Below, one piece after another: positions 10,032 through 33,922 of a stretch of 64,000 nucleotides of DNA (position 1 is its first letter; every line of letters starts with the position of its first letter). A program made the position numbers and the translations under genes. The notes beneath the pieces were generated by a model. The model had not been told where the DNA came from. It did not search any database and saw only the letters and a program-made list of their open reading frames with translations. The stretch lies in IMG/VR virus record IMGVR_UViG_3300027861_000010; one strand, written 5' to 3'. This DNA is from a virus.

Positions 10032-10057
10032 CATTGCAAGGGAATGCAGGTCGATAG

Positions 10058-10086
10058 AGGTCACGCTCCGGCGTGGCCTTTTTTTT
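10058..10086 (+). terminator. Intrinsic terminator after nrdJ
   Basis: AGGTCACGC-TCCG-GCGTGGCCT followed by a T run. Confidence 0.85.
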
Positions 10087-10161
10087 GTTAATCTAGCGGC
10101 TTTGTCAGTCAATACGTTAAGCTGATACCGTCCCTGAAGCCGTTGGCCGGAGGAAAATAGA

Positions 10162-11271
10162 GTGACCACGGACGAGATCCACCTGAATCCGGAACAAGCC
10201 CTGGATGTTGGCCTTTGGGCTGATTTCCCAGGCACGATTGACCATTTGGTCGAGAAGTGTGCAGCACCTGCCCGGGATCTGCGTCAGGCCGTGTCGTCGA
10301 TTTATACCAAATCTGACATAGGTGTTTACTGGAATCCGACGTACGAGAAGGCCGGTTTGTACGTTCGACCTGAGTTGAACGAGGAGGAATTCGATTGGTG
10401 CCTAAACGCAATAATCGAAAAGGTCGGAGCCGACCATGTCAAGACTGAGCCGCTGACAAGCGACGACTTGCAGGATTGGTGGGTCAAAGTTGCTTACTCA
10501 CCAACGCTTCGACGGATAGCTGAAGCTCTTCAGTTCTTACCTTCCAAAGACATTCCAGGTTTCGGTGGCCGACCCATTGCGTCCTCCATTGCTTCTGGAC
10601 TGTTGGGAGCCGGATTGGGTTACGGCGGCGGCTACCTGATGGACAAGATGACGCCGAAAGGACTTGGCGACGGTCGAATGCGATACTGGGGTGCAGCTTT
10701 AGGCGGGCTGGGCGGAGCAGGATTGGGAGCGACACCGGGGCTCGTCAACTGGCACGACGGACGTAAGTTCAACGACAACACACTTTGGTCTGGATTTCCC
10801 GAAGACGGTTGGGAACCCGATCTACCGCAGTCCGAACAGTACAAGAAAGCAGTTGACGCCTTTGTTACGAAGAATGCATTCCAGGTTCATCCGACAGGGC
10901 ATGCGTCTACAATAGGTGGACCTTCGTTTGCAGAAGCTCCGCTGATCCGAACAAATGAACTCGGTAATGTCCTTTGGGGCACCCGAGCAAACCCACAGAC
11001 AACTGCCATGACTATGGGAGCTGTTTATGGTGCGAACCAGATGCCTGATCCCCGATCACGCCCTGGAGTTGTGACTCCCCACCAGACTGGTTTACTCGGT
11101 ATGGCTATGGGAGCAGCCGGTGGCGGCATCAAAGGGTACGCCACAGGCTACGTTGTTGGGAAAGGTCTCGGTATACTGACAGGCATGCCTGAAGGTACAC
11201 AACAAAAACTGAGGCAAACTGGTGCCACATTGGGTATCATCAATTCGCTGGTACCCCGCTTGTTCAATTAA
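10162..11271 (+). CDS. Putative virion internal/ejection protein with glycine-zipper segments and K-x-A sites
   Basis: GLLGAGLGYGGG, AALGGLGGAGLGA, GLLGMAMGAAGGG; sites KCAA, KVAY, KKAV, KNAF; GGAGG RBS with GTG start. Confidence 0.55.
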   Translation: MTTDEIHLNPEQALDVGLWADFPGTIDHLVEKCAAPARDLRQAVSSIYTKSDIGVYWNPTYEKAGLYVRPELNEEEFDWCLNAIIEKVGADHVKTEPLTSDDLQDWWVKVAYSPTLRRIAEALQFLPSKDIPGFGGRPIASSIASGLLGAGLGYGGGYLMDKMTPKGLGDGRMRYWGAALGGLGGAGLGATPGLVNWHDGRKFNDNTLWSGFPEDGWEPDLPQSEQYKKAVDAFVTKNAFQVHPTGHASTIGGPSFAEAPLIRTNELGNVLWGTRANPQTTAMTMGAVYGANQMPDPRSRPGVVTPHQTGLLGMAMGAAGGGIKGYATGYVVGKGLGILTGMPEGTQQKLRQTGATLGIINSLVPRLFN

Positions 11272-11284
11272 GAGGAACACTTAG

Positions 11285-11734
11285 ATGACAATTTACGACG
11301 ACTTGAAGGCCGGGATCGACAAGATCATCGCCGACTACAAAGCTGCCAATGCCGATGGTAAGCTTTCGTTCTCTGAAATCTTTACGCTGGTCGGCAATGC
11401 GATTGCAACTTTCGTCCAGCTGATTGAAAATTTCGGAAGCGGCACTGGAGCCGAAAAGAAAGCTGCTGTGTTGGCGGCGATTGACCAGTTGTTCGACGAA
11501 GTGATCATTCCGATCGACATCAAAGGGATTCCGAACATGCTGGAGGGTATCGTTGATAAGGCCCTCAAGCAGTTGGTCCTGACGTTGGCCGATGGTTGGG
11601 TCGATTCGATCGTTAACATTTTCAACAAGACCGGTTGGGGATCGCCAGGTGGCCAACCTGCCGGAGACCCAGAAAACCCACAAGGTGCCAGCCCTGGCAT
11701 TCCAGGCTCGCCCCCAGGATTTGAAGCCTACTAA
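11285..11734 (+). CDS. Hypothetical helical protein with Pro/Gly tail
   Basis: GAGG RBS; amphipathic helices; GAEKKAAVL. Confidence 0.55.
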   Translation: MTIYDDLKAGIDKIIADYKAANADGKLSFSEIFTLVGNAIATFVQLIENFGSGTGAEKKAAVLAAIDQLFDEVIIPIDIKGIPNMLEGIVDKALKQLVLTLADGWVDSIVNIFNKTGWGSPGGQPAGDPENPQGASPGIPGSPPGFEAY

Positions 11735-11744
11735 GGTTAGGTTC

Positions 11745-11758
11745 AAAATCCGGATTTT
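11745..11758. repeat. Dispersed 14-bp palindrome, perfect copy AAAATCCGGATTTT
   Basis: Perfect inverted repeat, intergenic, abutting the RBS of the next gene. Confidence 0.8.
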
Positions 11759-11769
11759 AGGAGACTCTC

Positions 11770-12168
11770 ATGGCGATGCTACTTGGTAATCAACACGGTG
11801 TGGTGTTCTTTGGACCATCAAAGAATCCAAAAGCGGTTCGTTGGTGGGCTGAACGAGGCCAGTTACACTGGGAAGACTCTCGGGATAATGGTTACGGCAC
11901 AGTAGGCATCAGAGAGTTTCTGCTTCGGCTTCAGGGGATCAACGACATGATCTCTAACGGCAAACGCAAGGACAATGAAGGGTTCATGCATGCCGATGAA
12001 ATCGAAAGACATCAACGGTTTATCGAGGAAGCCCTGGAACTGGTCAAAAAGGCCAAAGAACAGGGCGACCCCGATGACGTTCGCGTACGTAAACACAAGG
12101 CCCAAGATCGGCCTATGACTATGGTGATGCCCTCCAGTCTGTCGGCTGGCAAGGGTGTGGAATTTTAG
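11770..12168 (+). CDS. Hypothetical protein
   Basis: AGGAG RBS; 132-aa ORF. Confidence 0.6.
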   Translation: MAMLLGNQHGVVFFGPSKNPKAVRWWAERGQLHWEDSRDNGYGTVGIREFLLRLQGINDMISNGKRKDNEGFMHADEIERHQRFIEEALELVKKAKEQGDPDDVRVRKHKAQDRPMTMVMPSSLSAGKGVEF

Positions 12169-12178
12169 GAGAGCAGGG

Positions 12179-12565
12179 ATGCATCCACGAGAAGCGTTCA
12201 AAATTGGTTTTTTGGCCAGATGTGTCGAGCAGGGTCTCTCTCCTGAGGATACTCGTGCTTTGGCTAAGTCCGCTTCGGACTGTTTTGAGAAGGCGGGATT
12301 CTCCGGCTTCAAAGATGTACTCGACACCGCTAAAGGTATCGGGTACCCAGCATTAGCTGCGGCAGCGGCTGCTCCGATCGCTCTCGGCGGCGGGGCGGCA
12401 TACTTTGCCAATAAAGCAACAGACACCGATGCGACGGATATTGAGGAGATCAAGCAGAAAGAGCTGGTCGATACTTACCGTCGCATGGCTGATCAGTTGC
12501 GTCGACAACGCAAAATGCGAGATTACAAAGCAGAACGAAAGCGGACAGGCCAAGTGTTCCTGTAA
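12179..12565 (+). CDS. Putative processed virion protein with single hydrophobic segment
   Basis: AFKIGFLARCVEQG leader, KSAS and EKAG sites, ALAAAAAAPIALGGGAAYF segment, basic coiled tail; start placed at ATG 12179. Confidence 0.55.
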   Translation: MHPREAFKIGFLARCVEQGLSPEDTRALAKSASDCFEKAGFSGFKDVLDTAKGIGYPALAAAAAAPIALGGGAAYFANKATDTDATDIEEIKQKELVDTYRRMADQLRRQRKMRDYKAERKRTGQVFL

Positions 12566-12574
12566 GGAAAAGGC

Positions 12575-12955
12575 ATGTCAAATAGCTTGGTGAAGTTCAC
12601 CAGCCGGAAGGATGGAAATGGTCGTGGCGAATTATTCTGGGGAAGGGCGGACATTGATGGTCTACCGTTTCGTGGCCACAACCCTCCGTCCATGCGGCAG
12701 GATGAGTTTGAAGAACGAGTCGTTCGAGTCGCGGACCCTAAGAACGGGACGTTCTACACGGGTGACGACGAGGAGAATGCAGCTTTTCTGAAAGTCATGG
12801 ATGGTATCACCAACAGCTGGTACCACATGATCTTCATTGAGCGTTGGCGAGAAGAAGGCGACAAACATCATTACGTTTATGTGGAGTGGGTAGAGTTCTT
12901 CCTTGAGGATGGGAAGCCGACACCTTACGCCCCACCAAGTTCAACAGGGATGTGA
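12575..12955 (+). CDS. Hypothetical protein
   Basis: AAGG RBS; 126-aa ORF coupled to neighbours. Confidence 0.6.
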   Translation: MSNSLVKFTSRKDGNGRGELFWGRADIDGLPFRGHNPPSMRQDEFEERVVRVADPKNGTFYTGDDEENAAFLKVMDGITNSWYHMIFIERWREEGDKHHYVYVEWVEFFLEDGKPTPYAPPSSTGM

Positions 12956-13848
12956 TCATGGATCAGAAAACAGCTGAAGAGTTGCTCCAACAAGTGCGAG
13001 CAGCCGCGGAAGAGAAACAGGCCGAGACTGGTTACTCCGGCCTGACCGGTATGTTGTCTAGCATTGGCAAAAGCCAGCCGGACTACGATAACCTGGCTAC
13101 GGCTGTTCGATCCCAGGCAAACTCGAAGATGCAGCAAGGAGCCATGAGCAACGTCATCAAGGCGATGCTTTTGGCTGGCGGAGCTGGTGCTGGCCTTCGA
13201 GGGCTGACAGGTCTTCAACGCATGTTTTCTGGCCAATCTAAGCCGGTATCCAGTCGGACAGTGGACATGCCTGTGGCGTATCCGGTTTCTCCTGAAGAAG
13301 AAGAAGAGAAGACTGCGGAGATCGGTAACTCGAAAGCCACTGCAAACTACGGGTTGAACTGGTACATCCCGTCCATGGTGTTGGGAGCACCGCTGGCTGC
13401 TTACGGGGGCTGGAAAGGCGTCGATGCTATTCTGGATACACAGCGTCGAAAGAAGACCGAATCCGACCTTGATGATGCGAAGAAAAAGTACCAACAAGCT
13501 TTGTTGGGCTCCTACAAGATGTCGGCGGATGAGCAGTCACCAGAAGACGTGCTCGACGCTGTGTTCGACGAACATTACAGCAAGTCCGCTGAAGAAGAAG
13601 GATTCATCGGCGGACTCATCAATCGTTACGCTCCCAATCTTCCCGGCATCAGTCAAGGCTTGGCAGCAGCCTACGCCATTCCGGCCACGGTAGGTGGCTA
13701 CGCTGTTGTTAATTCAATCATGAAGAAGAAGAGCAAGCGAGCTTTGCTTCAGAAAGCCATGCGTGAACGGGCTCGACGACAAGCTCAATCGCAACCTGCA
13801 GAGCTGTATGCAATTCCGCATCCTAAGGAAGAAGAGCAAGAGGTTTAA
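12952..13848 (+). CDS. Putative virion polyprotein with three K-x-A-delimited hydrophobic modules
   Basis: KQAE..MLLAGGAGAGLRGL; KTAE..MVLGAPLAAYGGW; KSAE..GLAAAYAIPATVGGYAVV; each followed by basic residues. Confidence 0.55.
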   Translation: MIMDQKTAEELLQQVRAAAEEKQAETGYSGLTGMLSSIGKSQPDYDNLATAVRSQANSKMQQGAMSNVIKAMLLAGGAGAGLRGLTGLQRMFSGQSKPVSSRTVDMPVAYPVSPEEEEEKTAEIGNSKATANYGLNWYIPSMVLGAPLAAYGGWKGVDAILDTQRRKKTESDLDDAKKKYQQALLGSYKMSADEQSPEDVLDAVFDEHYSKSAEEEGFIGGLINRYAPNLPGISQGLAAAYAIPATVGGYAVVNSIMKKKSKRALLQKAMRERARRQAQSQPAELYAIPHPKEEEQEV

Positions 13849-13854
13849 CAAAGC

Positions 13855-16800
13855 ATGGAACCGCTCACGCCAAATCTGCTTGAGCCTTCGACTCCATCTT
13901 TGCTGTCCTCGGCTCCTATCTCTCCACCAAGTCCTCTGCCTGCTCAGCAGCCAGAGGATGATTTTCGTGAATTCGGTGATACCGACAAGACGCGGTCGAG
14001 CATTTACCAACGAGTGCTCCAGGCGGCTCAGTCAATTGAGCCAATTACCAATGAGCGTCACACTCTGCGATTGACCGGGGTCGACTATCAAGACCCCGAT
14101 CGCGTCAGTAAGCGAGATCAGAAAGCCGCTATCCTGGGCGGGTTAAGTCGAGGCCGGAGGCTCCGAGGAACTTGGGAGCTGATGGATAACGCCACAGGTC
14201 AGGTGCTGGATCAGAAGAAGTCCGTATTGATGACCGTGCCTCACATGACGGAACGAGGTACCTTTATCAACAAAGGGACTGAGTACACGTTGAAGAACCA
14301 GCAACGATTGCTTCCAGGAGTGTATACGCGAGTCCGTGACAACGGTGAGATTGAGTCCCACGCCAATATCATGCCCGGCAAGGGAGTTTCGCACCGTTAT
14401 TTCCTTGACCCAGAGAAGGGTGTATTCAAGATCCGATTGGGTCAAGGCACCGTCGGACTAATGCCACTGCTCAAGGCAATGGGAGCTAAACCGGGGCAGC
14501 TTAAAGAAGCCTGGGGCCGGGACCTTTTTGCGTCAAACTACAACGCAGACGACGCCACAGAGTATAAGAAACTCAAGCAGAAGTTTCTTACAAAGAAGGA
14601 ACTCGAAGGCGAAGAGAACGAACAACGGGAAGCGTTGGTCAACAAGTTTGCCAGCATGGAGATGGATCCGCAGGTCACCAGCCGGACGCTGGGCAAGCCT
14701 CATCAAGGGCTGACACTGGACGCTGTCCTGGATATTACGAAGAAGTTGGTTGCGGTCTCTAAGAATGAGGCCGAGCCAGATGATCGAGACTCACTGACGT
14801 TCCAACAGTTTGTCGGGCCGGAAGATTTGTTCGCTGAGCGAATCAAGCGGGACAAGGGTGGCCTGCGTCGAAATCTGTTGTGGAAGATGTCTGGTAAAGG
14901 CAATCTAAAAGGGATGCCGTCCTCGGCTCTCAATAAACAACTGATGGCCGCGTTGATGACTTCAGGTCTGGGTCAGGCGATCGAAGAGATCAATCCTGCT
15001 GAACTTTATGACAAGTCGACGGCAGTTAGTCGTTTAGGGGAGGGCGGCATTCCTTCAACAGATGCGATCCCGAAAGAAGCTCGGAGTGTCCAACCAAGCA
15101 TGCTGGGCTACATCGACCCAGTGCGAACGCCAGAGTCCGGCAAGGTGGGTGTAGACACTTACTTGGCTCGAGGTGCTCGTAAGGGAAAGGACGGAAAACT
15201 CTACTCACAGTTCCGCGACGTAAAGACAGGGAAACTGCTTTACAAGTCGCCGCAGGATGTGGCGGATATGACCATTGCCTTCCCAGGCAGTATGGATCAA
15301 CGCAGCAAACGAGTTGCAGCCATGCGTAACGGGAAGATGACGTACGTGCCGAAGGATGAAGTTGATCTGGTGTTGCCTTCAATGGAGGAGGCATTTAATC
15401 CGTTGTCCAACATCATTCCTATGAAGAGTCAGGTGAAAGGGCAACGGTTGGTGATGGCGTCTCGAATGACGACGCAAGCCTTGCCGATCGTGGACGCCGA
15501 AGCTCCGTTGGTACAGTCAGCAATTCCGGACACAGATGGCAACCAAAGTTACGAAGAACTGTACTCAAACAATATGGGAGCGTTGCGGGCTCCCCAGGGT
15601 GGTGTTGTCAAAAGTGTTGATGACGACGGGATCACAGTTCGATACGAAGACGGCACCGAGGAAACTCACGATCTGTATCAGAACTTCCCGTTCAACCGAA
15701 AGACGTTCATTCACCAAACTGCAAACGTAAAGCCCGGTGATCAGTTTAAGCCAGATCAGTTGCTGGCCTATTCCAATTACACAGACAAAGGTGGAGCAAC
15801 AGCTCTCGGTAGGAACGCCAGAACCGCTTACATTGCCTGGCAGGGAAAGAACTTTGAAGACGCTGTGGTTGTCTCAGAAAGCTTTGCTCGGAAAATGTCT
15901 TCTGAGCACATGTATCAACACGACTTGGAGGTCGATGATAAGACGAAGGTTGGAAAGAAGCAGTTCATCCAACAGTTCCCAGGTAAGTTCGACAAAGCGA
16001 CACTCGCTAAGCTCGACGAGAACGGAGTCATCAAACCTGGAACTGTCGTGAACTATGGTGATCCTTTGATTCTCGGGGTTACACAGCGAGAAGCGGCCCA
16101 CAACAAGGTTCACAAGAAAGGTCAATCGGGGTTTAACGATGCAACAGTCACTTGGAATCATCACGACGCTGGCACCATTACCGATGTGGTTATGGGCAAA
16201 AAAGGGCCGACTGTCGTTGTTAAAGCATCCTCCCCAACCCAGACCGGCGACAAGCTATCAGGCCGTTACGGTGACAAAGGAGTCATTGCTGACATCATCC
16301 CAGACGGTGAAATGCCGCATAACGGTGATGGTCAGCCCTTTGAAGTGTTACTCAATCCGCTCGGAGTAATCACTCGAACCAATCCGGCTCAGATGGCTGA
16401 GTTACTTCTTGGCAAGATTGCGGCCAAACGCGGCAAGCCGATCAAAGTGCAGGACTTTGACTCCCAGAAGGACATGGCTGCCTGGGTCATGGAGGAACTG
16501 GGCCGGGAAGGCCTATCCGATCTCGAAGATGTCCTCGATCCGTCCAAGGATCAGAAGGTCAAAGGAATCGCTACGGGCAACCGGTTCTTTATGAAGCTGC
16601 ACCACACAGCTGAGTCCAAGGGACAAAGCCGCGGCGGCGGGTCTTACACGATGGAGGACACACCGGCTAAGGGAGGGTCAGAGGGTTCCAAGCGTGTCGG
16701 CATGTTGGATACCAACGCACTGTTGTCTCACGGAGCTACGGCGACTCTGCAAGACGTCAGCTCTGTACGTGGACAGAAGAATGACGAGTACTGGATGCAG

Positions 16801-18309
16801 TTCATGGCCGGGTACAACCCGAAGGCTGCGAAAGTTCCGTTGGTGTACCGGAAGTTTGTCGATCAGTTGAGGGCCGCAGGTGTCAATGTGACCAAACAGG
16901 GTACCCAGACCAACATCATGGCCCTGACGGACAAAGATATCGACGAAATGGCTGGAGATCGTAAGCTGACCTCCGCCGAAGGTGTTGATTGGGGTGAGTC
17001 TCTTAAGGAGATTCCAGGTGGTTTGTTCGATAAGGCCAAGACTGGAGGTCATGGCGGCAACAAATGGTCGTACATGCAGCTGCATGAGCCCTTGCCTAAC
17101 CCTGTAATGGAGGAACCGCTTCGGCGACTCCTCGGACTCACGAAAAAGGACTTCAATGCCGTCATTTCAGGCGAAAAGCCGTTGGGATCGCACGGAGCAG
17201 GTCCTGGAGCCCTGAAAAAGGCTCTGGAGTCGATGAATGTTGATGCAGAGATCAAGAAAACCCGAAATATCATCCAAGCTGGGCGAGCATCGGAGCGGGA
17301 TGCCGCAGTAAAGAAGCTGGGCTACCTAAAATCAGCCAAAAAGCTCGGATTGAAGCCTGAAGACTATGTTTTGAGTAAAGTTCCTGTCCTGCCGCCGATG
17401 TTTCGGCCTGTCAGCATGATGAGCAACGATATGCCGCTCATCAATGACGCGAACTTTCTTTACAAAGAGCTTTTCGAGGCTAATTCCAACCTGAAAGCAA
17501 TACAGAAGGAGCTCGGCAACGACGCGTCGGGGCAAGAGCGACTCGCAACGTACAATGCCTTCAAGGCAGTGACAGGTTTGGGCGATCCGATCCATCAGAA
17601 GACCCGAGACAAGAACGTCAAAGGTATTTTGAAGACAGTGTTCGGCTCGAGCCCCAAGTTTGGCACGCTGCAACGTAAATTGATCTCCACAACGGTCGAT
17701 AATGTCGGTCGAGCGGTGATCACACCAAATCCTGATCTCGATATGGATTCTGTTGGCCTGCCAGAGGACAAAGCGTTCAAGGCGTACGACAAGTTCATCA
17801 CCAGGCGACTGGTGCGACAAGGAATGTCACTTCGAGCAGCTCGTAACGAAGTTGCAAATAAATCGAAGCTGGCTCGGAAACTTCTGTTGGAGGAAATGGA
17901 TGAACGACCGGTCTATATCAGTCGGGCTCCAGTTCTTCACAAGTTCGGTATCATGGCTATGAAGCCTCGATTAACCAAAGGTAGCACCTTGCAGGTGAGC
18001 CCTTTGATTGTGAAAGGTTTCAACGCTGACTTCGACGGCGATGCCATGAATTACAACGTCCCAAGTACGGAGAAGGCTCGTAAGGAAGCGATCGAGCGAC
18101 TTTTGCCTTCCCGTAACTTGTTCAGTCTGTCAGACTTCAAGTCTGTGATGCATGCTCCAGCTAACGAGTATGTTGGTGGTTTGTTTCATGCAACGAAGTC
18201 AAAAAGTGACCGTCCCAAGAAGATTTTCCGAACAGCCGCGGACGCGAGGAAAGCGTACGAGCGAGGTGATATCTCTATCGACGATCGCGTTCAAATCTTA
18301 GAATCGTAA
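13855..18309 (+). CDS. Phage multisubunit DNA-directed RNA polymerase: beta fused to N-terminal half of beta-prime
   Basis: beta motifs PHMTERGTFINKG, RTPESGKVG, NFEDAV, GDKLSGRYGDKGVI, LLNPLG, MKLHH; beta-prime motifs VPVLPPMFRP, GRAVITP, SRAPVLH, catalytic NADFDGD at 18022-18042. Confidence 0.95.
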   Translation: MEPLTPNLLEPSTPSLLSSAPISPPSPLPAQQPEDDFREFGDTDKTRSSIYQRVLQAAQSIEPITNERHTLRLTGVDYQDPDRVSKRDQKAAILGGLSRGRRLRGTWELMDNATGQVLDQKKSVLMTVPHMTERGTFINKGTEYTLKNQQRLLPGVYTRVRDNGEIESHANIMPGKGVSHRYFLDPEKGVFKIRLGQGTVGLMPLLKAMGAKPGQLKEAWGRDLFASNYNADDATEYKKLKQKFLTKKELEGEENEQREALVNKFASMEMDPQVTSRTLGKPHQGLTLDAVLDITKKLVAVSKNEAEPDDRDSLTFQQFVGPEDLFAERIKRDKGGLRRNLLWKMSGKGNLKGMPSSALNKQLMAALMTSGLGQAIEEINPAELYDKSTAVSRLGEGGIPSTDAIPKEARSVQPSMLGYIDPVRTPESGKVGVDTYLARGARKGKDGKLYSQFRDVKTGKLLYKSPQDVADMTIAFPGSMDQRSKRVAAMRNGKMTYVPKDEVDLVLPSMEEAFNPLSNIIPMKSQVKGQRLVMASRMTTQALPIVDAEAPLVQSAIPDTDGNQSYEELYSNNMGALRAPQGGVVKSVDDDGITVRYEDGTEETHDLYQNFPFNRKTFIHQTANVKPGDQFKPDQLLAYSNYTDKGGATALGRNARTAYIAWQGKNFEDAVVVSESFARKMSSEHMYQHDLEVDDKTKVGKKQFIQQFPGKFDKATLAKLDENGVIKPGTVVNYGDPLILGVTQREAAHNKVHKKGQSGFNDATVTWNHHDAGTITDVVMGKKGPTVVVKASSPTQTGDKLSGRYGDKGVIADIIPDGEMPHNGDGQPFEVLLNPLGVITRTNPAQMAELLLGKIAAKRGKPIKVQDFDSQKDMAAWVMEELGREGLSDLEDVLDPSKDQKVKGIATGNRFFMKLHHTAESKGQSRGGGSYTMEDTPAKGGSEGSKRVGMLDTNALLSHGATATLQDVSSVRGQKNDEYWMQFMAGYNPKAAKVPLVYRKFVDQLRAAGVNVTKQGTQTNIMALTDKDIDEMAGDRKLTSAEGVDWGESLKEIPGGLFDKAKTGGHGGNKWSYMQLHEPLPNPVMEEPLRRLLGLTKKDFNAVISGEKPLGSHGAGPGALKKALESMNVDAEIKKTRNIIQAGRASERDAAVKKLGYLKSAKKLGLKPEDYVLSKVPVLPPMFRPVSMMSNDMPLINDANFLYKELFEANSNLKAIQKELGNDASGQERLATYNAFKAVTGLGDPIHQKTRDKNVKGILKTVFGSSPKFGTLQRKLISTTVDNVGRAVITPNPDLDMDSVGLPEDKAFKAYDKFITRRLVRQGMSLRAARNEVANKSKLARKLLLEEMDERPVYISRAPVLHKFGIMAMKPRLTKGSTLQVSPLIVKGFNADFDGDAMNYNVPSTEKARKEAIERLLPSRNLFSLSDFKSVMHAPANEYVGGLFHATKSKSDRPKKIFRTAADARKAYERGDISIDDRVQILES

Positions 18310-18339
18310 CTGCTTGACGCAGATAAGGAGATCAAACAA

Positions 18340-19029: not shown

Positions 19030-19256
19030 TGTTCATTGTTGAGATAGTTGAAGCCATCGGGAAGCCTCCATTACGTGTGGAGGCTTCCCAAGTTGTGGTC
19101 CGTATGCCTGACGGAACGCCCGTTAGTTTGGCCGCACTTTATGGAAGCTCCGAAAGTGTCCTGGTATCGCACTGTGAGGACGAGACTTTTAATGACAACC
19201 TCCGAAAACTAGGACTGAACGATACCGTAATCTCTGAAACCCTGAAGGTGAAATAA
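19029..19256 (+). CDS. Small hypothetical protein
   Basis: Stop/start overlap (TAATG) with upstream gene. Confidence 0.6.
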   Translation: MFIVEIVEAIGKPPLRVEASQVVVRMPDGTPVSLAALYGSSESVLVSHCEDETFNDNLRKLGLNDTVISETLKVK

Positions 19257-19257
19257 C

Positions 19258-19986: not shown

Positions 19987-19998
19987 GTGAGTTTGTGA

Positions 19999-22900
19999 AT
20001 GCTCAACACTACAGTTGGACAACTGCTGGTCAACGAGGCCCTTCCTGACGAGCTTCGCGATTACAATCGCGTGCTCGACAATAAGGGTATGCATGCACTG
20101 CTCCAACAAGTGGCTCGAGAGCATCCAGACAAGTACCGTGAAGTTTCATTCAAGTTGAATCAGGTTGGTCAACGTTCCGCCCAAGACCAGGGCGGAATGT
20201 CGTTTAGTGCTCGACACCTGAAGCGTTCGCCGTATGCGAATGAAACTCGATCACGCATTCAGGCTCAACTGGGTAAGGTACTTGACGACGATTCCTTAAC
20301 TGACGAGCAGCGAGCGGCCAAAGTTGTTCGTATTGTTGGCAAAGAGATGGAACCTCAACAGAAGGCAATTCTGGAGGAGGCCATCAAAGACAAAAATCCC
20401 CTAGCGATGCAGGTGCTATCAGGTAGCCGCGGGAAGCCAATGAACTTGGCCAGCCTGTTGGGTGCTGACATGTTGTACTCAGATCATCGCGACGAGGTAA
20501 TTCCGATTCCGGTACTTCGCAGTTACAGCGAAGGGCTGACACCTGAAGAATACTGGGCCGGAACGTACGGAGCTCGTCGCGGCATTATCGCAACGAAGTT
20601 CGCCACTCAGGAAGCTGGTTTCTTATCTAAGCAGCTCAACCAGGCTGGACACCGGCTGGTGGTGATGGATGAAGAGGGCGAGGATGACGATCGCCGCGGT
20701 ATGGTTGTCGATACGGACGACATGGATAACGAAGGGTCATTACTGGCCCGCGACATGGGACCGTACAAGCGAAATACTCCGCTGACACCGAAGATTCTCA
20801 AGCACTTAAAGCGTCTCGGTAAAAACCGGATTTTAATCCGATCACCGCTGGTTGGCGGCTCGCCGGAAGGTGGAGTCTATGCTCGGGATGTCGGTATTCG
20901 AGAGACTGGTAAGTTGCCTGGCCGCGGCGAACAGGTCGGCTTGCAAGCAGCACAGGCATTAAGTGAACCGATCAGCCAAGGCCAATTGTCGGCTAAACAC
21001 TCGGGCGGCGTTGCTGGCCAAGAGAAAGCTGTCGGCGGTTTCCAGGCAATCAACCAGCTGATCCAGGTACCCAAGAAGATGCAAGGCGGAGCCGCTCACT
21101 CAGAAAAGGACGGCATCGTCCAACGAGTGGAGAAAGCTCCGGCTGGCGGACACTACGTCACGATCAACGATAAGCAACATTACGTTGGAGAAGGTTTTGA
21201 CGTCAAAGTCAAAAAGGGCGACGAAATCGAAGCGGGCGATCTGCTGAGTAACGGCATTCCTAATCCGGCCCTGATCGTGAAGTACAAGGGCGTAGGCGAA
21301 GGTCGTCGTTACTTTGTTAATGAGTTCCGCAAGGCGATGGCCGGAGGCGGAATGCAAGGGCATCGTCGTAACATCGAGCTGCTGGCTCGCGGACTCATCA
21401 ATCACGTCAAGATGACCGACGAGACTGACGAGCATGCTCCGGACGATATTATTCCTTACTCAACATTGGAGCACACCTATAAGCCGAGAGGAGACTCTCA
21501 GTTGTTGGCTCCAAAGAAAGCCGTCGGACAATACTTAGAGCGTCCGGTATTGCACTACACCATCGGCACCAAGATCCGCCCTTCGATGTTGAAAGACTTC
21601 GAGGAGTTCGGCATCACCGACTTGCCAGTCCATAAAGAACCACCTCCGTTCCAGCCGCACATGGTTCGAGGGATGTATACACTTCAACATGACCCAGACT
21701 GGATGACCCAGATGTACGGGTCTGGACTGAAGAAGAGTCTGTTGAATTCCACTGCTCGTGGTGCAACCAGCGATGCTCGAGGAACCAGTTTTGTTTCCAG
21801 TCTGGCTGAAGGCTCTGATTTCGGTGAGGTTGCAGATCGTGCTGTGATTCAGCCGAAGCCTTCGTACGAGTTGCCTAAGATTGAGCCACCTGCTCCTGAG
21901 GAAGAAAAGCTTCCGGCTCCTGCCGCTCCGCCTACACCGTCGTTCTTCGGTGGTCGGTTCAAGACTGGTATGCATAAACAGGCTGAGGAACCCAAAGTTC
22001 CGACAGCACCAAAAACGCCAGCAACGCAATCGCTTGCTGCACCATTGGCACCGACACCTGCTCCGACTGGGGCAGGTAATATGTCGTCGAATATCATGCC
22101 TTCGTCAGGACCTACAGCTCAGGATTTCATGCCAGCACCGGGTCAGTTGGGTTCACAAGAGAATCCCAACGGCATTATGCCTCCGGATCAGTTGCAGCAG
22201 TATGCTCAGAATGCTCAACAGCAGAATGACCGCGGGATGCGGATGGTGGGTGTAGACCCGATGTCTGATCCGTTCAGAACGCAGACAACTGCGGCAACGC
22301 CTCCGCCGTCAACTCCAGCTCAAGCCCGAGCCGACCAGGTACAGCAACAACGTAGCTACGGTAGTGGCAACACTCAAACGGATATGCGGACTTTGTTCGC
22401 TCAGGCACCTTCGAGAACCTTAGCTGGTAACTCCCTGGCACGGAAGATGCGTCGAGGGGATGCTCGTACAATGGGGATCCAGGCAGCTCGACAACGTGCT
22501 CAACAGATACAGAACGAGCAAGCTGCTCGCCGGAATCTGTACCAACAGGCCCACCCACAGCGAGCTTATGACCCTATACCGGGGCCGTCAGTCGCGGGAC
22601 CATTACCTGCAGAGCAGTCACAAAGTCCCGTACCGGCAACTGGCGAGATGGGTTATGGTGACGTGGCTGGCACTTTACTTGCCGGACAACATGCCTGGAC
22701 GCAAGGCGGTAGAGTTTGGAATGCGGCGGCTAAAGGTGAAATGCTTACGCACGGTTCACAGCTAGGCAAGTCACTCAATCCTGGAGCACAGAAAGGCGTT
22801 CAGACGGTAAATCAGTTGGCCCGTACCGCAGCACACAAGACCCCAGGACTCGGACGCTTTGTTGCTGCCACAAGTGATGATGCCGCCCGGGCTGCTGGAG

Positions 22901-23886
22901 CAAGCAGCAAAGGACTCTCAAAGGCCCTTGGTCCTGCTGCTTTTGTGTTGGAAGGTGGGCTTATCGGGAAAGACATTTACGATAAGACACAAGAAGGGCA
23001 ATCGTTTGGTCGGGCCTGGAAAGAGCAGGCGGATGAGCACGGAGCTAATACTCGAGGCCTGTTTACTGACTGGGATGGCGGTGCTCACGAGATATATCAG
23101 AAACCTATTGATGTGGCGATGCATGTGCTGAGCCCGGTAGCTACTGTGCAGGAAGGAACACAATTGGCCGCCGAAGTCGGCGGCGGTCTCGGAGATATGG
23201 CCACAGGTGCGTGGAACTTCGCGTCGGATGCTGAGGGACGTAACCGGGCAGCAGCAAAAGCCGAAACCGAACAAATGATGGCTGATCGCCAGGAGGCTCT
23301 ATCAGGAGAGCAGGACCAGATCCGGTCAACGCTGGAAAATAATAAAACAATCTCGCCGATGCAGAAAGAAGAGTTACGCCAACGCTCTGCCGAGTTAGAC
23401 TTACGGAAGCAGGAAGCCCAGTTGAAAGCTGACGCGGCCACGGACGAAACAGAAGGCTGGCAGCTCGGTAAGCAACACACATTTGGTACTGGTGGACATT
23501 ACTTTCGTGACGCAATGGCCGGGACAGGGAACCGGCTTTCAGCGAAAATCGAAAAATTACAGGCTAACCAGGATAGTCTGACACCAGAACAACAGTTCGA
23601 TTTGAAGAATATGATTCGCAGGCGTGACGAGATGAAGAGGCTGGGAGACTTTTACAGTCGCGAAGTTGGCTATTTTGGTGAAGGAGATTTCACTAAAATT
23701 ATGCGAATCCGTGTGCGAAACATAAAAGTCCAGTCAGTGGAACTCGCCCGGCGACTACGCGAGCCTGCTGTAAAAGGGAACCCTCAGCTTACAATGGAGT
23801 TGGAAGCTGAGATGCGACATCAACAAACCCGCCTTGCAAACATGAAAAGCTGGGCTAGACAGGCCAAGAATCAGAAGGTCAAGTAG
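19999..23886 (+). CDS. RNA polymerase beta-prime C-terminal subunit with ~630-aa appended domain
   Basis: TTVGQLL, SGSRG, bridge helix GLTPEEYWAGTYGARRG..T..GFL, trigger loop GLQAAQALSEP..SAKHSGG; similarity ends near aa 610; K660-Q-A precedes an unrelated extension. Confidence 0.9.
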   Translation: MLNTTVGQLLVNEALPDELRDYNRVLDNKGMHALLQQVAREHPDKYREVSFKLNQVGQRSAQDQGGMSFSARHLKRSPYANETRSRIQAQLGKVLDDDSLTDEQRAAKVVRIVGKEMEPQQKAILEEAIKDKNPLAMQVLSGSRGKPMNLASLLGADMLYSDHRDEVIPIPVLRSYSEGLTPEEYWAGTYGARRGIIATKFATQEAGFLSKQLNQAGHRLVVMDEEGEDDDRRGMVVDTDDMDNEGSLLARDMGPYKRNTPLTPKILKHLKRLGKNRILIRSPLVGGSPEGGVYARDVGIRETGKLPGRGEQVGLQAAQALSEPISQGQLSAKHSGGVAGQEKAVGGFQAINQLIQVPKKMQGGAAHSEKDGIVQRVEKAPAGGHYVTINDKQHYVGEGFDVKVKKGDEIEAGDLLSNGIPNPALIVKYKGVGEGRRYFVNEFRKAMAGGGMQGHRRNIELLARGLINHVKMTDETDEHAPDDIIPYSTLEHTYKPRGDSQLLAPKKAVGQYLERPVLHYTIGTKIRPSMLKDFEEFGITDLPVHKEPPPFQPHMVRGMYTLQHDPDWMTQMYGSGLKKSLLNSTARGATSDARGTSFVSSLAEGSDFGEVADRAVIQPKPSYELPKIEPPAPEEEKLPAPAAPPTPSFFGGRFKTGMHKQAEEPKVPTAPKTPATQSLAAPLAPTPAPTGAGNMSSNIMPSSGPTAQDFMPAPGQLGSQENPNGIMPPDQLQQYAQNAQQQNDRGMRMVGVDPMSDPFRTQTTAATPPPSTPAQARADQVQQQRSYGSGNTQTDMRTLFAQAPSRTLAGNSLARKMRRGDARTMGIQAARQRAQQIQNEQAARRNLYQQAHPQRAYDPIPGPSVAGPLPAEQSQSPVPATGEMGYGDVAGTLLAGQHAWTQGGRVWNAAAKGEMLTHGSQLGKSLNPGAQKGVQTVNQLARTAAHKTPGLGRFVAATSDDAARAAGASSKGLSKALGPAAFVLEGGLIGKDIYDKTQEGQSFGRAWKEQADEHGANTRGLFTDWDGGAHEIYQKPIDVAMHVLSPVATVQEGTQLAAEVGGGLGDMATGAWNFASDAEGRNRAAAKAETEQMMADRQEALSGEQDQIRSTLENNKTISPMQKEELRQRSAELDLRKQEAQLKADAATDETEGWQLGKQHTFGTGGHYFRDAMAGTGNRLSAKIEKLQANQDSLTPEQQFDLKNMIRRRDEMKRLGDFYSREVGYFGEGDFTKIMRIRVRNIKVQSVELARRLREPAVKGNPQLTMELEAEMRHQQTRLANMKSWARQAKNQKVK
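20821..20834. repeat. Palindrome copy AAAAACCGGATTTT (1 mismatch)
   Basis: Inside the beta-prime C gene; flanked by T and A. Confidence 0.6.
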
Positions 23887-23926: not shown

Positions 23927-23971
23927 GAGTAGGCAATCAGCCCTTTTTTTGTAAGAATTTGGACGGCCACG

Positions 23972-27426: not shown

Positions 27427-28452
27427 TTGAAGGTTTACAGGGACGTAAAATTAGCTGATCCTTTCTTAAGGCCAAACTGGCGACACGAGCGTGTTGTCAA
27501 GATGCTTGATAGTGTGCCGCCGGAACGTGTCAAGCGAACTGACGACGAGTGGATTGCTGGTTACAAGAAGTTCTTGCAGCAGTGGAGCAAAAGCGAAGCT
27601 AACCGGGACAAGCTCCTGTACGACAACCCTGGGTTGTACTTCGCTTACGTCATGTTCGATCGAATGTTCACGGAGCCTGAGCTTCGACTTATGATCGAAG
27701 CTCGGCTACTATCTGGCCTGACATACGCGGATATCGCAGAAGAATGTAAGACGATTCCGGAAACCATACAGTGGTATGAGCGGCTGTTCTTCAATGTGAT
27801 TGAGTTTTTACCCAACCACGATTGGATAATGAAGCACGTTCTCTTGCCATCCTCCGACCGTTTCGTGCAAGATGATACCGCGGATGATGACGAAGAAGTC
27901 GCCTTTGCCCCTAAACCTTCCAATGAAGTCGTCCGACCTCATCTTGATATGACGTTGAAGTTCTTCGCTTATTATGGTGGTCCAATGGTTTGCGACCAGA
28001 TGATCAGCGGATTCCGGCGAGATAAGCGAGTCACCTCGCATGAAGATCTTCCAGAGTATTTCCACGAACAATTCATGTCTCAAGTAACGCGTCGAAGTGC
28101 TCAGTCGTCAGGGCAATTCGAGATCAACAAGTACAACGTGATGGAGTTGTTCGCGACTCACACTAGAATTATCGAGATTCAACGATCGGCTGAGAGTGCG
28201 GAAGATCGTCACAACGAGTTTGAGAAACACGTCAATGCGATGTTGACTGAACTGCCATGGACTGTCGGCCTCGAAAGCAAGAAACTGTATGAAGGTTCTG
28301 AAATCGGGAAGTTCGACGCAGGTGCGTCTGAGCTGAACGAGGAAGAACTGATGCTATTCGGGTCGGGCAGAGAGCCGGAGTCGTTGGATGATGTTGCCGG
28401 TCTGACCATATCCAGCCGGAAGGAGCCGGAGAATAATGCAAAGTCTAAGTAA
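27427..28452 (+). CDS. Hypothetical protein
   Basis: GGAG RBS, TTG start, 341 aa. Confidence 0.65.
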   Translation: MKVYRDVKLADPFLRPNWRHERVVKMLDSVPPERVKRTDDEWIAGYKKFLQQWSKSEANRDKLLYDNPGLYFAYVMFDRMFTEPELRLMIEARLLSGLTYADIAEECKTIPETIQWYERLFFNVIEFLPNHDWIMKHVLLPSSDRFVQDDTADDDEEVAFAPKPSNEVVRPHLDMTLKFFAYYGGPMVCDQMISGFRRDKRVTSHEDLPEYFHEQFMSQVTRRSAQSSGQFEINKYNVMELFATHTRIIEIQRSAESAEDRHNEFEKHVNAMLTELPWTVGLESKKLYEGSEIGKFDAGASELNEEELMLFGSGREPESLDDVAGLTISSRKEPENNAKSK

Positions 28453-29827
28453 ATCTGATGAGCAGTTGCTGCTCGATGGCGTCAAGCAGGCGGTGGCCTT
28501 GGTGGATAACCAAGATCTATCGCCAAATGCTGCGATGCATAAGGTGGCTGAGGAGTTACAGTACTCCCCAGGCTTCCTCAAGGCAGCATGCAACGCGTTC
28601 AACAACGGGCGACAACTTGCCCAGTGGAACGCCAATGACTCCGTGTTGGATAAGTTGGCCAGCTTCCCGCTCGCCAATTACGACGAGATCCACGATACGA
28701 TGTGGGGTACGACACAGGAGAAGGTCGCATCTGTTTCATCGTTCGGCCCTAAGTTCGACACGTACGAAGAGCAATCTCGGCGGGAACTGTTGAACATGGA
28801 CCTGTCGAGCTTTGAGAAAGCCGCATCAGATGCTCCTGAAGTGCATCCGTTGGTGGCGGACGAACACGCTGATATGCGGTCCAAGCGAGCCTACTCTGAT
28901 TTTGAGTTCGCTCGGAGGGAGCTGGAAGAAGCTCGCCGCGAGAAGTCGTCCAATGACGACCGACTCAACCTGAAGATGCACTTGCTGGAGAATTACTTCC
29001 GCAAGTTTGCTTATGATCGTTTGCCGTTTGCCCAAGTAGAGCACGGCGTAGCGACTTATTTCGGGGAGCCCGGTAAAGCTCTGATGGGCTACATCGCCGA
29101 GCGATTTCCTCGAGAGAAGCGAGCTTCGGACCACCAATCAACTTGGGATGGTTTTCAGCAGCCGGTGAATCGACGACAAGAACCCTACGCTCTGATCGCT
29201 GATTGCATCAAGCAAGCCAAGGATCTGTATGCGGCCACAGTTCAACTCGCTGCCGCTGAGGAAAAGTTCGCCAAAGCAAAGGAAGGTGTTGCCCCTTTTT
29301 CACAACCCCGATCCCCAGAGTCGAATGGGAGCCAGCCTACCCTGACTCCATCGTTGATTGCTGATGGATCGGGGGAAAAGCAGGCCAACATTTTTGGAGG
29401 CATCGCTGGAGGCATGGGGCTTGGAGCTGCTAGGTCCATGACCGAAGGACTGGGCAGCGACCCGGAAGCTCGGATCGAGAAGCAGATTTCTGAACTGGAA
29501 AGCCCCGACCATCTGAACGAGATGCGAAAGATTCGAGCTCAGACCGTATTGACTCAGCTGATGAGCGATCCTGACAGCCCGCTCAGCGGCTACGATCCGG
29601 AAGAAGTGCTGACCGCATACAATGAAATGGTGCAACTGTCGCCCCGATTAGCAGATCAACCTGCGGCCATTGCTCCGCTCCTCAACAAGCGGTTGATGGG
29701 TAACACTGAGCCTTTCGAGGTTGGCGAGCAAGTCAAACTCGAGAAGGGACTCAAGGACGTACAGGCCCCACAGTCAGCACCCAAACCAGTGGACTTGATG
29801 AAAAATGAAGCCAGTATCATTAGCTGA
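28436..29827 (+). CDS. Putative virion head protein with K-x-A sites and a Gly-rich hydrophobic segment
   Basis: KLAS, KVAS, KAAS, KRAY, KFAY, KRAS, KFAK, KQAN-IFGGIAGGMGLGAA. Confidence 0.6.
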   Translation: MQSLSKSDEQLLLDGVKQAVALVDNQDLSPNAAMHKVAEELQYSPGFLKAACNAFNNGRQLAQWNANDSVLDKLASFPLANYDEIHDTMWGTTQEKVASVSSFGPKFDTYEEQSRRELLNMDLSSFEKAASDAPEVHPLVADEHADMRSKRAYSDFEFARRELEEARREKSSNDDRLNLKMHLLENYFRKFAYDRLPFAQVEHGVATYFGEPGKALMGYIAERFPREKRASDHQSTWDGFQQPVNRRQEPYALIADCIKQAKDLYAATVQLAAAEEKFAKAKEGVAPFSQPRSPESNGSQPTLTPSLIADGSGEKQANIFGGIAGGMGLGAARSMTEGLGSDPEARIEKQISELESPDHLNEMRKIRAQTVLTQLMSDPDSPLSGYDPEEVLTAYNEMVQLSPRLADQPAAIAPLLNKRLMGNTEPFEVGEQVKLEKGLKDVQAPQSAPKPVDLMKNEASIIS

Positions 29828-33881: not shown

Positions 33882-33922
33882 TCCTTCATTTCATCAATCA
33901 AAACTCACGGAGGATTTCCGTA

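What the first reader, a model, noticed from the sequence alone, without database searches (positions are those of the whole stretch)
10162..13848. K-x-A-delimited polyproteins that would release glycine-zipper membrane peptides
Seen: 12952-13848 has three modules, each K-x-A, then one Gly/Ala hydrophobic helix, then a basic tail. 10162-11271 and 12179-12565 follow the same plan, as do 28436-31052. Known: prohead proteases process internal head proteins (T4 gp21, phiKZ gp175), and glycine zippers mediate helix packing in pores. Inference: a packaged set of small membrane-inserting ejection proteins that build a conduit for the DNA and RNAP, encoded directly upstream of the RNAP gene.
Basis: partly seen in the sequence, partly recalled or inferred. 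Interest (0 to 1): 0.8.

Follow-up and report, generated by a model that had tools for sequence, protein, structure and literature searches.

The report
Protease-cut glycine-zipper precursor proteins of phage
Three genes just upstream of this uncultured marine phage's RNA polymerase encode precursor proteins in which a conserved Lys-x-Ala tag, probably the cutting signal of the phage's head protease, separates throw-away parts from small cysteine-free glycine-zipper peptides; the peptides are probably carried in the capsid, but no cutting, packaging or membrane activity has been measured.

Summary
The ORFs at 10162-11271, 12179-12565 and 12952-13848 are real, conserved genes (230+, 49 and 85 homologs). 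All three share one plan: K-x-A in variable linkers, followed by weakly hydrophobic Gly/Ala helices.

A raw count in this window is not significant (10 K-x-A against about 6 expected). Across the families the pattern is clear:
- K-x-A is 3-5 times enriched in linkers and prodomains.
- It is almost absent from the zipper modules (0 vs 51, 1 vs 35, 2 vs 47).
- K-x-A is the top x-spaced residue pair in the head module (74 vs 24.6).
- It is the conserved single site at the capsid protein N-terminus, also in the cultured phages Arash and Vibrio D69.
- Cysteine occurs almost only in segments bounded by K-x-A (39- to 158-fold skew). The putative mature parts are cysteine-free, like the RNA polymerase in the same operon.

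Best reading: these are head-protease-processed internal virion precursors. Membrane insertion is plausible but weakly supported, and the "conduit for DNA and RNAP" is speculation. The scan has met this K-x-A/glycine-zipper theme before in sister genomes. I found no paper on it. I class it as a new variant of T4/phiKZ-type processed head proteins.

The parts
10032..10161 (+). Intergenic region: an intrinsic terminator after the RNR gene (stem 10056-10081 plus T-run), then a box conserved in relatives (TTAATCTAG, about 20 nt, TAAGCT). It marks the start of a new transcription unit.
10162..11271 (+). 369-aa precursor. It has an acidic folded N-domain (residues 1-111, pI about 4.3, holds both Cys), a Gly-zipper hairpin module (112-230), a disordered linker with K228-x-A and K237-x-A, and a basic Gly-zipper C-module (240-369, pI 10.3).
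10486..10494 (+). K109-V-A111, conserved in 113 of 114 homologs. Cysteine stops upstream of it, but AF2 places it inside a beta-strand, so cleavage here is uncertain.
10843..10878 (+). K228-K-A230 and K237-N-A239 in the variable, low-pLDDT linker of the 369-aa protein.
11285..11734 (+). 149-aa cassette protein. It has no glycine zipper and no conserved K-x-A.
11770..12168 (+). 132-aa soluble cassette protein with no conserved K-x-A.
12179..12565 (+). 128-aa precursor. It has a conserved N-leader with Cys15, then K30-S-A32 followed by S-D (nt 12266-12274, present in 48 of 49 homologs), a variable spacer, an Ala/Gly helix and a basic tail.
12575..12955 (+). 126-aa soluble cassette protein with no K-x-A.
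12952..13848 (+). 298-aa three-module polyprotein (probable start 12958). It has a 24-residue leader and three modules at residues 25-122, 123-213 and 214-298. K-x-A sits at nt 13015-13023, 13309-13317 and 13582-13590.
13855..18309 (+). RNA polymerase beta fused to the N-terminal half of beta-prime. It has 0 Cys in 1484 aa and lies in the same operon as the cassette.
19999..23886 (+). RNA polymerase beta-prime C-half plus a passenger domain, 0 Cys. A terminator-like site follows at about 23930-23955.
28436..29827 (+). 463-aa head-module protein. Twelve K-x-A sites fall in residues 1-317, then comes a Gly zipper. Both Cys lie in the K-x-A-rich part.
29805..31052 (+). 415-aa Cys-free Gly-zipper protein. 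K-x-A sites are conserved at about residues 22 and 54 ahead of the zippers. It gives a sub-threshold Gly-zipper_YMGG hit.
31036..32532 (+). Candidate prohead protease. It is assigned by position, by invariant His110 and Ser173, and by its own K-x-A density. No fold or sequence link to known proteases was obtained.
35022..35969 (+). Major capsid protein with a single K-x-A at residues 32-34 (nt 35115-35123). The site is conserved in all relatives examined.

Best explanation
The three flagged genes encode pro-proteins of the phage's internal virion (ejected) protein set. They are transcribed in one operon with the virion RNA polymerase genes.

Each precursor joins soluble, acidic, cysteine-bearing prodomains or spacers to basic, cysteine-free Gly/Ala-zipper modules through short flexible linkers that carry K-x-A. 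Inside the prohead, the head-maturation protease (candidate: 31036-32532) cuts after the Ala of (E)-K-x-A, preferably before S, A or E. The same signal trims the capsid protein leader and shreds the scaffold-like proteins.

The prodomains and spacers are destroyed or lost. About six peptides of 85-130 residues remain in the capsid. They most likely leave with the DNA and the polymerase and act at the host envelope as membrane anchors or channel formers.

Status of each step:
- Shown: the architecture and its conservation; the motif statistics; the partition of K-x-A and of cysteine; the operon layout.
- Inferred: cleavage (about 0.75 that K-x-A is the protease code, about 0.6 that these three proteins are substrates and packaged), membrane action (about 0.3) and a DNA/RNAP conduit (about 0.15).
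For: 1. K-x-A is the protease code.
- It is the top-ranked of all 400 residue pairs a-x-b in the head module: 74 vs 24.6, z about 10. It is also top in the Arash head module at 41 vs 20.3.
- K-x-A-S-D occurs 9 times against 0.4 expected.
- The Vibrio D69 head module is likewise enriched.
- The capsid protein has one conserved N-terminal site in all relatives, including distant L028, D69 and Arash.

2. The flagged families follow the code.
- K-x-A is enriched 3-5 fold in linkers and prodomains and nearly excluded from the zipper modules.
- In the 298-aa AF2 model, the segments with pLDDT below 50 (25-27, 117-123, 208-214) sit on the three sites.
- The K228 and K237 sites of the 369-aa protein lie in its disordered linker.
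- Flanks of the cassette sites score like head-module sites and above non-virion K-x-A sites (Mann-Whitney p = 0.002).
- The three non-zipper proteins of the same cassette have no conserved K-x-A.

3. Cysteine gives independent support.
- Cysteine is the most skewed residue between K-x-A-bounded 'removed' zones and 'mature' zones: 39-, 158- and 74-fold, against at most 8-fold for the next residue.
- The operon 10162-23886 has 0.13% Cys against 1.3-1.8% elsewhere. The chance of zero Cys in the 1049 putative mature cassette residues is 2e-7.
- The RNAP has no Cys.

4. Context.
- Terminators bracket 10162-23886.
- The cassette is syntenic in L002-L008.
- The distant lineages L009 and L017 keep the three-module plan upstream of the same RNAP.

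5. Virion presence of analogues.
- The Arash RNAP subunits are the most abundant virion proteins by mass spectrometry.
- The Arash K-x-A/Gly-zipper proteins gp213, gp221 and gp224 were also detected (PMC10585845).

6. Membrane character.
- Many small-xxx-small repeats are present.
- Residues 133-216 of the 369-aa model best match Tim22/Tim23/NDUFA11 and SlyB hairpins, at Z 5.3-6.5.
Against: - No cleavage or packaging has been measured for any member.
- The raw K-x-A count in the window's three ORFs is not significant and is not enriched over the whole cassette.
- The region tests count related sequences, so the depletion in conserved blocks is partly inherited.
- K109-V-A111 lies in a predicted beta-strand of a well-folded domain.
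- The Arash virion proteome lists 116 proteins, including ribonucleotide reductases, so it is not stringent.
- Arash and D69 lack this cassette and have the portal gene upstream of the RNAP instead.
- The hydrophobic segments fall below the classical transmembrane threshold.
- No glycine-zipper Pfam family matches any of about 160 family members.
- The structural matches are below the level that is meaningful for helical proteins.
- No shared N-terminal targeting peptide was detectable.
Confidence: 0.55

Rival explanations
1. The proteins are packaged and processed as proposed, but the mature Gly/Ala-rich basic peptides are structural or DNA-associated internal head proteins. They would be part of an inner-body or core type structure, or charge neutralisers, with no membrane role. 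The 'zipper' would serve helix-helix packing inside the capsid.
For: The tails are basic (net +3 to +8) and the mature parts have pI 8-10. Hydrophobicity is below the transmembrane threshold. No glycine-zipper family matches. SPN3US and phiKZ heads hold large masses of processed internal proteins of unknown role.
Against: Small-xxx-small repeats in uncharged stretches of 15-25 residues are conserved. The best, though weak, structural matches are all membrane hairpins. The strict cysteine exclusion shared with the polymerase fits proteins that must leave the capsid.
Confidence: 0.22
2. The proteins are not packaged. They are membrane-associated proteins made in the infected cell, for example anchors for the polymerase or for enzymes, superinfection exclusion factors or lysis timing factors. 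K-x-A would then be a linker motif with another role, or would be cut outside the capsid.
For: In lineage L017 a 2H phosphoesterase and a LigD-type phosphoesterase/ligase are fused N-terminally to these modules, as expected of membrane anchors for enzymes. The cassette lies in the polymerase operon rather than the head module. Arash and D69 lack it.
Against: The same motif with the same flank preferences marks the capsid leader, the scaffold-like proteins and the head-module zipper proteins. K-x-A is avoided in the modules and cysteine is confined to K-x-A-bounded segments. There is no signal peptide or strongly hydrophobic helix, and no endolysin neighbour.
Confidence: 0.15
3. The K-x-A pattern in these three proteins is a by-product of Lys/Ala-rich helical linkers, so the finding is a compositional coincidence.
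For: The raw counts in the window ORFs are near expectation. Modules show no detectable homology to each other.
Against: Within-segment shuffles control for composition and still give 3-5 fold excess in linkers and near-zero counts in modules, across three unrelated families. The sites persist where the flanks are unalignable. The cysteine partition follows the same boundaries.
Confidence: 0.03

Closest known systems
T4 prohead protease gp21 with internal proteins IPI, IPII, IPIII and Alt (own knowledge; review PMC9026906 listed)
   Same: Small proteins carry short N-terminal leaders that are removed at a three-residue protease motif inside the prohead. The proteins are retained in the capsid and injected with the DNA.
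   Different: The motif here is K-x-A (Ala at P1), not L/I-x-E. The precursors have several modules with internal spacers. The mature parts are Gly-zipper peptides. No sequence similarity was found (PHROGs and Pfam negative).
phiKZ-like giant phages: SPN3US gp245 (A-x-E motif, leaders of 20-254 residues, virion RNAP and E proteins) (PMC10052503)
   Same: A myovirus head holds a virion multisubunit RNA polymerase plus many protease-processed internal proteins. Leaders of 20-24 residues occur. Long propeptides are cut at several motif copies.
   Different: The protease specificity is different. The RNAP layout is different (beta fused to the N-half of beta-prime). Here several mature products come from one chain. 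No cleavage data exist for this clade.
Ejection proteins of short-tailed phages: N4 gp51/gp52 beside vRNAP gp50; T7 gp14-16; P22 gp7/16/20 (PMC13434306; PMC8954989)
   Same: Capsid-stored, weakly hydrophobic helical proteins are encoded next to a virion RNA polymerase gene. In N4 they form channels in lipid bilayers and deliver the polymerase.
   Different: Those proteins are not reported to be protease-processed in the passages read, and they are much larger. The isolate Arash of this clade is a myovirus with a contractile tail (abstract of PMC10585845). No homology was detected.
Glycine-zipper membrane proteins (SlyB, Pfam Gly-zipper_YMGG/Omp, Tim17/22/23 family)
   Same: There are repeated small-xxx-small motifs in paired helices. 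The weak best structural matches are to SlyB (7ojf), Tim22 and Tim23. The neighbouring protein 29805-31052 hits Gly-zipper_YMGG at E = 2.5e-4.
   Different: That Pfam hit is below the gathering score, and none of about 160 cassette family members hits these families. There is no lipobox or signal peptide.
Herpesvirus assemblin cleavage rule (V/L/I-x-A then S; own knowledge)
   Same: Ala is at P1 and Ser is preferred at P1', in a capsid maturation protease of the HK97-lineage viruses.
   Different: P3 is Lys here.

Membership tests
Prohead-protease substrates / internal head proteins (T4 IP type, phiKZ/SPN3US type) | Carries the lineage's protease recognition motif at accessible sites | tested here: met
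   K-x-A is conserved in disordered linkers of all three families and excluded from the modules. The same motif dominates the head module and the capsid protein leader.
Prohead-protease substrates / internal head proteins (T4 IP type, phiKZ/SPN3US type) | Is actually cleaved at those sites in virions | not testable with these tools
   No N-terminomics exist for this clade. The Arash table gives coverage only.
Prohead-protease substrates / internal head proteins (T4 IP type, phiKZ/SPN3US type) | Present in purified virions | tested here: inconclusive
   Only the analogous Arash proteins gp213, gp221 and gp224 were detected, in a loose 116-protein list. No homolog of the three cassette families was found in the parts of Arash and D69 searched.
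Prohead-protease substrates / internal head proteins (T4 IP type, phiKZ/SPN3US type) | A prohead protease is encoded by the phage | tested here: inconclusive
   31036-32532 has the expected position, invariant His110 and Ser173, and 2269 homologs. It has no sequence link to known proteases or to PDB entries.
Glycine-zipper membrane proteins (Pfam Gly-zipper families, SlyB-like) | Match to a Gly-zipper profile above threshold | tested here: not met
   There were 0 hits among 80 and 78 family members. Only the neighbour 29805-31052 hits, and below the cut-off.
Glycine-zipper membrane proteins (Pfam Gly-zipper families, SlyB-like) | Repeated (G/A/S)xxx(G/A/S) in an uncharged helix | tested here: met
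   There are 4-8 such repeats per 19-residue segment, with 4-8 Gly. G79, G84, G145, G153 and G236 are invariant or nearly so.
Glycine-zipper membrane proteins (Pfam Gly-zipper families, SlyB-like) | Membrane helical-hairpin fold | tested here: inconclusive
   VIA-align gives Z 5.3-6.5 to SlyB, Tim22 and Tim23 for residues 133-216, below the level trusted for helical models. Foldseek was negative.
Podovirus ejection proteins (T7 gp14-16, P22 gp7/16/20, N4 gp51/52) | Sequence or profile similarity to a known ejection protein family | tested here: not met
   No PHROG or Pfam hit. No BFVD fold match.
Holins / lysis proteins | Strongly hydrophobic transmembrane domain(s) and linkage to an endolysin gene | tested here: not met
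   The Kyte-Doolittle 19-residue maxima are 0.8-1.5. The neighbours are RNR and RNAP genes, and no lysin domain was found.

The most novel reading that the evidence does not exclude
This would be a capsid-activated membrane-peptide system. Acidic soluble prodomains keep about six glycine-zipper peptides harmless in the producing cell. A head protease with Ala-P1 (herpesvirus-like) K-x-A specificity frees them only inside the prohead. On infection these cysteine-free peptides leave ahead of the cysteine-free RNA polymerase and assemble a membrane anchor or channel that lets a contractile-tailed phage deliver a 2,800-residue enzyme. That would be an 'ejectosome' of a kind so far described only for short-tailed phages.
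Probability: 0.18. Interest if true: 0.8.

Novelty: new variant of a known kind. Interest (0 to 1): 0.62.

Why it matters
If the reading is right, it gives three things.

- A readable cleavage code (K-x-A) for a very large clade of mostly uncultured marine phages. The candidate protease has more than 2,000 homologs. The code would allow mature virion proteins to be predicted from sequence alone.
- A simple sequence signature for ejected proteins: no cysteine between K-x-A sites.
- A candidate set of small peptides that could explain how a large-headed myovirus passes a multisubunit RNA polymerase into the cell.

The cultured relatives Salmonella phage Arash and Vibrio phages D69, D148 and D181 carry the same code. 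The prediction can therefore be tested directly by mass spectrometry.

Tried and rejected
- **DNA and tblastn against phage isolates.** The region gave nothing.
- **Pfam and PHROGs.** Nothing for all cassette proteins and their families.
- **ESM Atlas.** No informative neighbour.
- **Foldseek.** PDB and BFVD searches with the 369-aa model gave nothing at E <= 0.001.
- **Module homology.** hhalign between the modules, to test for duplication, gave probabilities of 22% or less, so the modules are alike in design but not demonstrably homologous.
- **Shared capsid-targeting leader.** An HMM of the 298-aa family leader found no other N-terminus in the window. This idea is rejected as untestable at this length.
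- **Shared late-promoter box.** The conserved box upstream of 10162 was not found elsewhere in the window.
- **The 369-aa N-domain as a decayed 2H phosphoesterase.** The idea came from WVKVAY against HVTVAY of the L017 fusion. hhalign aligned only the zipper region at 22%, so it is not supported.
- **Link of the candidate protease to known proteases.** Negative by phmmer, by a profile against PDB and by Pfam.
- **More loci from IMG/VR.** Only the same seven contigs came back.


Full report
**Context**

The window is a stretch of a phage genome in which every called gene lies on the + strand. It has no DNA match among 50,697 phage records, and no whole genome is held for it. Earlier notes of this scan call it an uncultured marine phage of about 210 kb.

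The flagged region lies between a class II-like ribonucleotide reductase gene (7737-10031) and a multisubunit RNA polymerase. The polymerase is encoded as beta fused to the N-half of beta-prime (13855-18309) plus the C-half of beta-prime (19999-23886) (Pfam).

The nearest isolates are Salmonella phage Arash and Vibrio phages D69, D148 and D181, at about 31% identity over the polymerase. In Arash virions the two polymerase subunits are among the most abundant proteins by mass spectrometry. That list holds 116 proteins, including ribonucleotide reductases, so it is not stringent (PMC10585845).

**The genes are real and form a cassette**

The region 10162-13848 holds six ORFs of 369, 149, 132, 128, 126 and 298 aa. 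They are syntenic, in this order and directly upstream of the polymerase, in seven related IMG/VR contigs.

| Protein | Homologs found | Identity range |
|---|---|---|
| 298 aa | 85 | 28-99% |
| 369 aa | more than 230 | not summarised |
| 128 aa | 49 | not summarised |

None of these proteins, nor any of about 160 aligned family members, matches a Pfam or PHROG family.

An intrinsic terminator (10056-10081 plus a T-run) and a box conserved in relatives precede 10162. The next terminator-like site follows the beta-prime C-half gene at about 23930-23955. The cassette and the polymerase genes therefore look like one transcription unit.

**Checking the observation**

In the 298-aa protein the three K-x-A sites are K22-Q-A24, K120-T-A122 and K211-S-A213. 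Each precedes a Gly/Ala hydrophobic segment and a basic tail.

A raw count in the window does not beat chance: 4, 1 and 5 K-x-A against 1.5, 1.8 and 2.9 expected. Across the whole cassette K-x-A is not the leading pair either.

The comparative data reverse that. Expected values below come from shuffling within each segment.

| Family | Region | K-x-A observed | Expected |
|---|---|---|---|
| 298 aa (89 members) | N-linker | 127 | 46 |
| | linker 2 | 95 | 24 |
| | linker 3 | 97 | 23 |
| | conserved block 1 | 2 | 36 |
| | conserved block 2 | 2 | 68 |
| | conserved block 3 | 38 | 77 |
| 369 aa (114 members) | N-domain | 348 | 63 |
| | inter-zipper linker | 185 | 34 |
| | zipper module 1 | 0 | 51 |
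| | C-module | 1 | 35 |
| 128 aa (49 members) | linker | 77 | 29 |
| | helix plus tail | 2 | 47 |

In the 298-aa family, 82 of 87, 80 of 89 and 84 of 89 members have at least one K-x-A in the three linkers.

The three cassette proteins without zippers have no conserved K-x-A, which serves as an internal control.

Distant lineages keep the plan. A 661-aa protein upstream of the polymerase in L009 and a 508-aa homolog in L017 (hhalign 98.5%) again place K-x-A between three zipper helices.

These tests count related sequences. The depletion in conserved blocks is therefore partly inherited and is not a probability.

**What K-x-A is**

Among all 400 residue pairs a-x-b, K-x-A ranks first in the window's head module, at 74 observed against 24.6 expected (z about 10). 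It also ranks first in the Arash head module, at 41 against 20.3. It is unremarkable in the early and tail genes.

- The extended form K-x-A-S-D occurs 9 times against 0.4 expected, and E-K-x-A 36 times against 7.
- The preferred flanks are Glu before the Lys, Ser/Ala/Glu after the Ala, and then Asp/Glu.
- The capsid protein (35022-35969; homolog of Arash gp226) has a single K-x-A at residues 32-34.
- That site is kept in every relative, including L028 (NIEKTA|QA), Vibrio D69 (LTKEA|GA) and Arash (LVKEA|GA), while the leader sequence around it changes.
- The scaffold-like proteins and the candidate protease itself are dense in the motif.

This is the pattern of a prohead-protease recognition site, as known for T4 gp21 and for SPN3US gp245 with its A-x-E motif and 20-24-residue leaders.

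The candidate protease, 31036-32532, sits upstream of the scaffold and capsid genes. It has invariant His110 and Ser173 and more than 2,000 homologs. I found no paper that describes a K-x-A rule.

**Structural placement of the sites**

The AF2 model of the 298-aa protein (78-sequence alignment, mean pLDDT 62.5) is all-helical. Its lowest-confidence segments (25-27, 117-123, 208-214) coincide with the three sites.

The 369-aa model (pLDDT 80.5) has four parts:
- a well-folded N-domain (1-122);
- a Gly-zipper hairpin (138-198);
- a disordered linker (about 200-260) that carries K228 and K237;
- a helical C-module (260-369).

K109-V-A111 is conserved in 113 of 114 homologs but lies inside a predicted beta-strand, so cleavage there is doubtful.

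**An independent line: cysteine**

I confirmed this and then mapped cysteine in the three families.

| Family | Where Cys occurs (reference positions) | Exceptions |
|---|---|---|
| 369 aa | 104 or lower, and 221-249 | one at 366 |
| 128 aa | 15 and 35 (one each at 20 and 26) | one at 75 |
| 298 aa | 1-19 and 200-209 (the spacer between K189-x-A and K211-x-A) | one at 87 |

- Between the K-x-A-bounded 'removed' zones and the 'mature' zones, Cys is the most skewed of all 20 residues in each family, at 39-, 158- and 74-fold. The next residue reaches at most 8-fold.
- The operon 10162-23886 has 6 Cys in 4525 residues (0.13%). The early genes have 1.8% and the later genes 1.3%.
- Zero Cys in the 1049 putative mature cassette residues has a chance of 2e-7.
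- The head-module zipper protein 29805-31052 is also Cys-free. In 28436-29827 both Cys lie in the K-x-A-rich N-terminal two-thirds.

K-x-A therefore separates segments under different selection. The zipper modules share a rule with the polymerase. This fits proteins that must be threaded out of the capsid, but that rationale is inference.

**Predicted products**

All of these are inferred.

| Precursor | Predicted product (residues) | Note |
|---|---|---|
| 369 aa | 112-230 | pI 8.2 |
| 369 aa | 240-369 | pI 10.3 |
| 369 aa | 1-111 (prodomain) | acidic, pI about 4.3 |
| 128 aa | about 33-128 | |
| 298 aa | 1-24 (leader) | |
| 298 aa | 25-122, 123-213, 214-298 | the three modules |

**Membrane character**

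The helices carry 4-8 small-xxx-small repeats. They reach only 0.8-1.5 on the Kyte-Doolittle scale, below the classical 1.6 threshold. There is no signal peptide.

Foldseek found nothing. VIA-align ranked Tim22, Tim23, NDUFA11-type subunits and SlyB first for residues 133-216, at Z 5.3-6.5. That is thematically apt but below the level trusted for helical models.

Membrane action is therefore plausible and unproven. The proposed conduit for DNA and polymerase has no direct support. The best functional parallel is N4, where gp51 and gp52 are encoded beside the virion polymerase and form channels in bilayers.

**Other relatives**

Arash and D69 have the portal gene, not this cassette, upstream of the polymerase. 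They do carry K-x-A plus Gly-zipper proteins: Arash gp213 between the polymerase genes, gp221 and gp224 in the head module, and a 179-aa protein in D69. The three Arash proteins were detected in virions.

In lineage L017 a 2H phosphoesterase (PF13563, 2.7e-10) and a LigD-type phosphoesterase/ligase are fused N-terminally to these modules, with K-x-A at the junctions. The zipper modules can therefore carry enzymes. That fits either cargo loading or membrane anchoring.

**Verdict**

- The membrane part is weakly supported.
- The conduit is speculative.
- This is a new variant of the T4/phiKZ-type system of processed internal head proteins, with a new cleavage code and multi-product precursors.
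- The scan has already met the K-x-A/glycine-zipper theme in this genome and in several sister genomes.

Noticed in passing
window 31036-32532; homologs P0255, P0263, P0265: Many homologs of the candidate head protease are about 870-1300 aa because one or two inteins (LAGLIDADG, Hint and Intein_splicing domains) are inserted. One insertion lies at about residues 172-183, beside the invariant Ser173-Met174. This argues that the stretch is the active site.
   Followed up: partly
window 57703-62559 (also 57109-57702, 32580-34957): A 1618-aa protein has no cysteine at all, like the polymerase and the cassette. Several head-module proteins (scaffold-like 32580-33881, 33923-34363, 34394-34957) are also Cys-free. 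A Cys-free list may mark the ejected or internal protein set.
   Followed up: no
L017:3280-4584, L017:4601-6286, L017:6731-8257: In a distant lineage with the same fused polymerase, a 2H phosphoesterase (weakly Acb1-like) and a LigD 3'-phosphoesterase plus ligase OB domain are fused to the Gly-zipper modules, with K-x-A at the junctions.
   Followed up: partly
window 18340-19029: A 229-aa protein between the polymerase genes has a conserved leader of about 21 residues that ends in K-x-A followed by FV(P/A)AGDP. Then come PMDPAAGG-type repeats and a second conserved K-A-A near the C-terminus. It is another likely protease substrate.
   Followed up: partly
window 10032-10161: A terminator is followed by a conserved TTAATCTAG ... 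TAAGCT box upstream of the cassette in relatives. The box was not found elsewhere in the window, so its role (promoter?) is open.
   Followed up: partly
homologs P0094, P0095, P0097 of window 10162-11271: Some 540-560-aa forms of the 369-aa family carry Pfam PF18823 in the precomputed table. They may be fusions or merged gene calls with an upstream gene.
   Followed up: no
L001 (Arash 128120-130100) and L029 (D69 141221-143295): In the cultured relatives the gene directly upstream of the polymerase is annotated as the portal protein in Arash (its D69 counterpart is a 593-aa hypothetical protein), followed by a protein of about 95 aa, rather than the glycine-zipper cassette. The cassette is specific to the uncultured marine branch.
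   Followed up: partly
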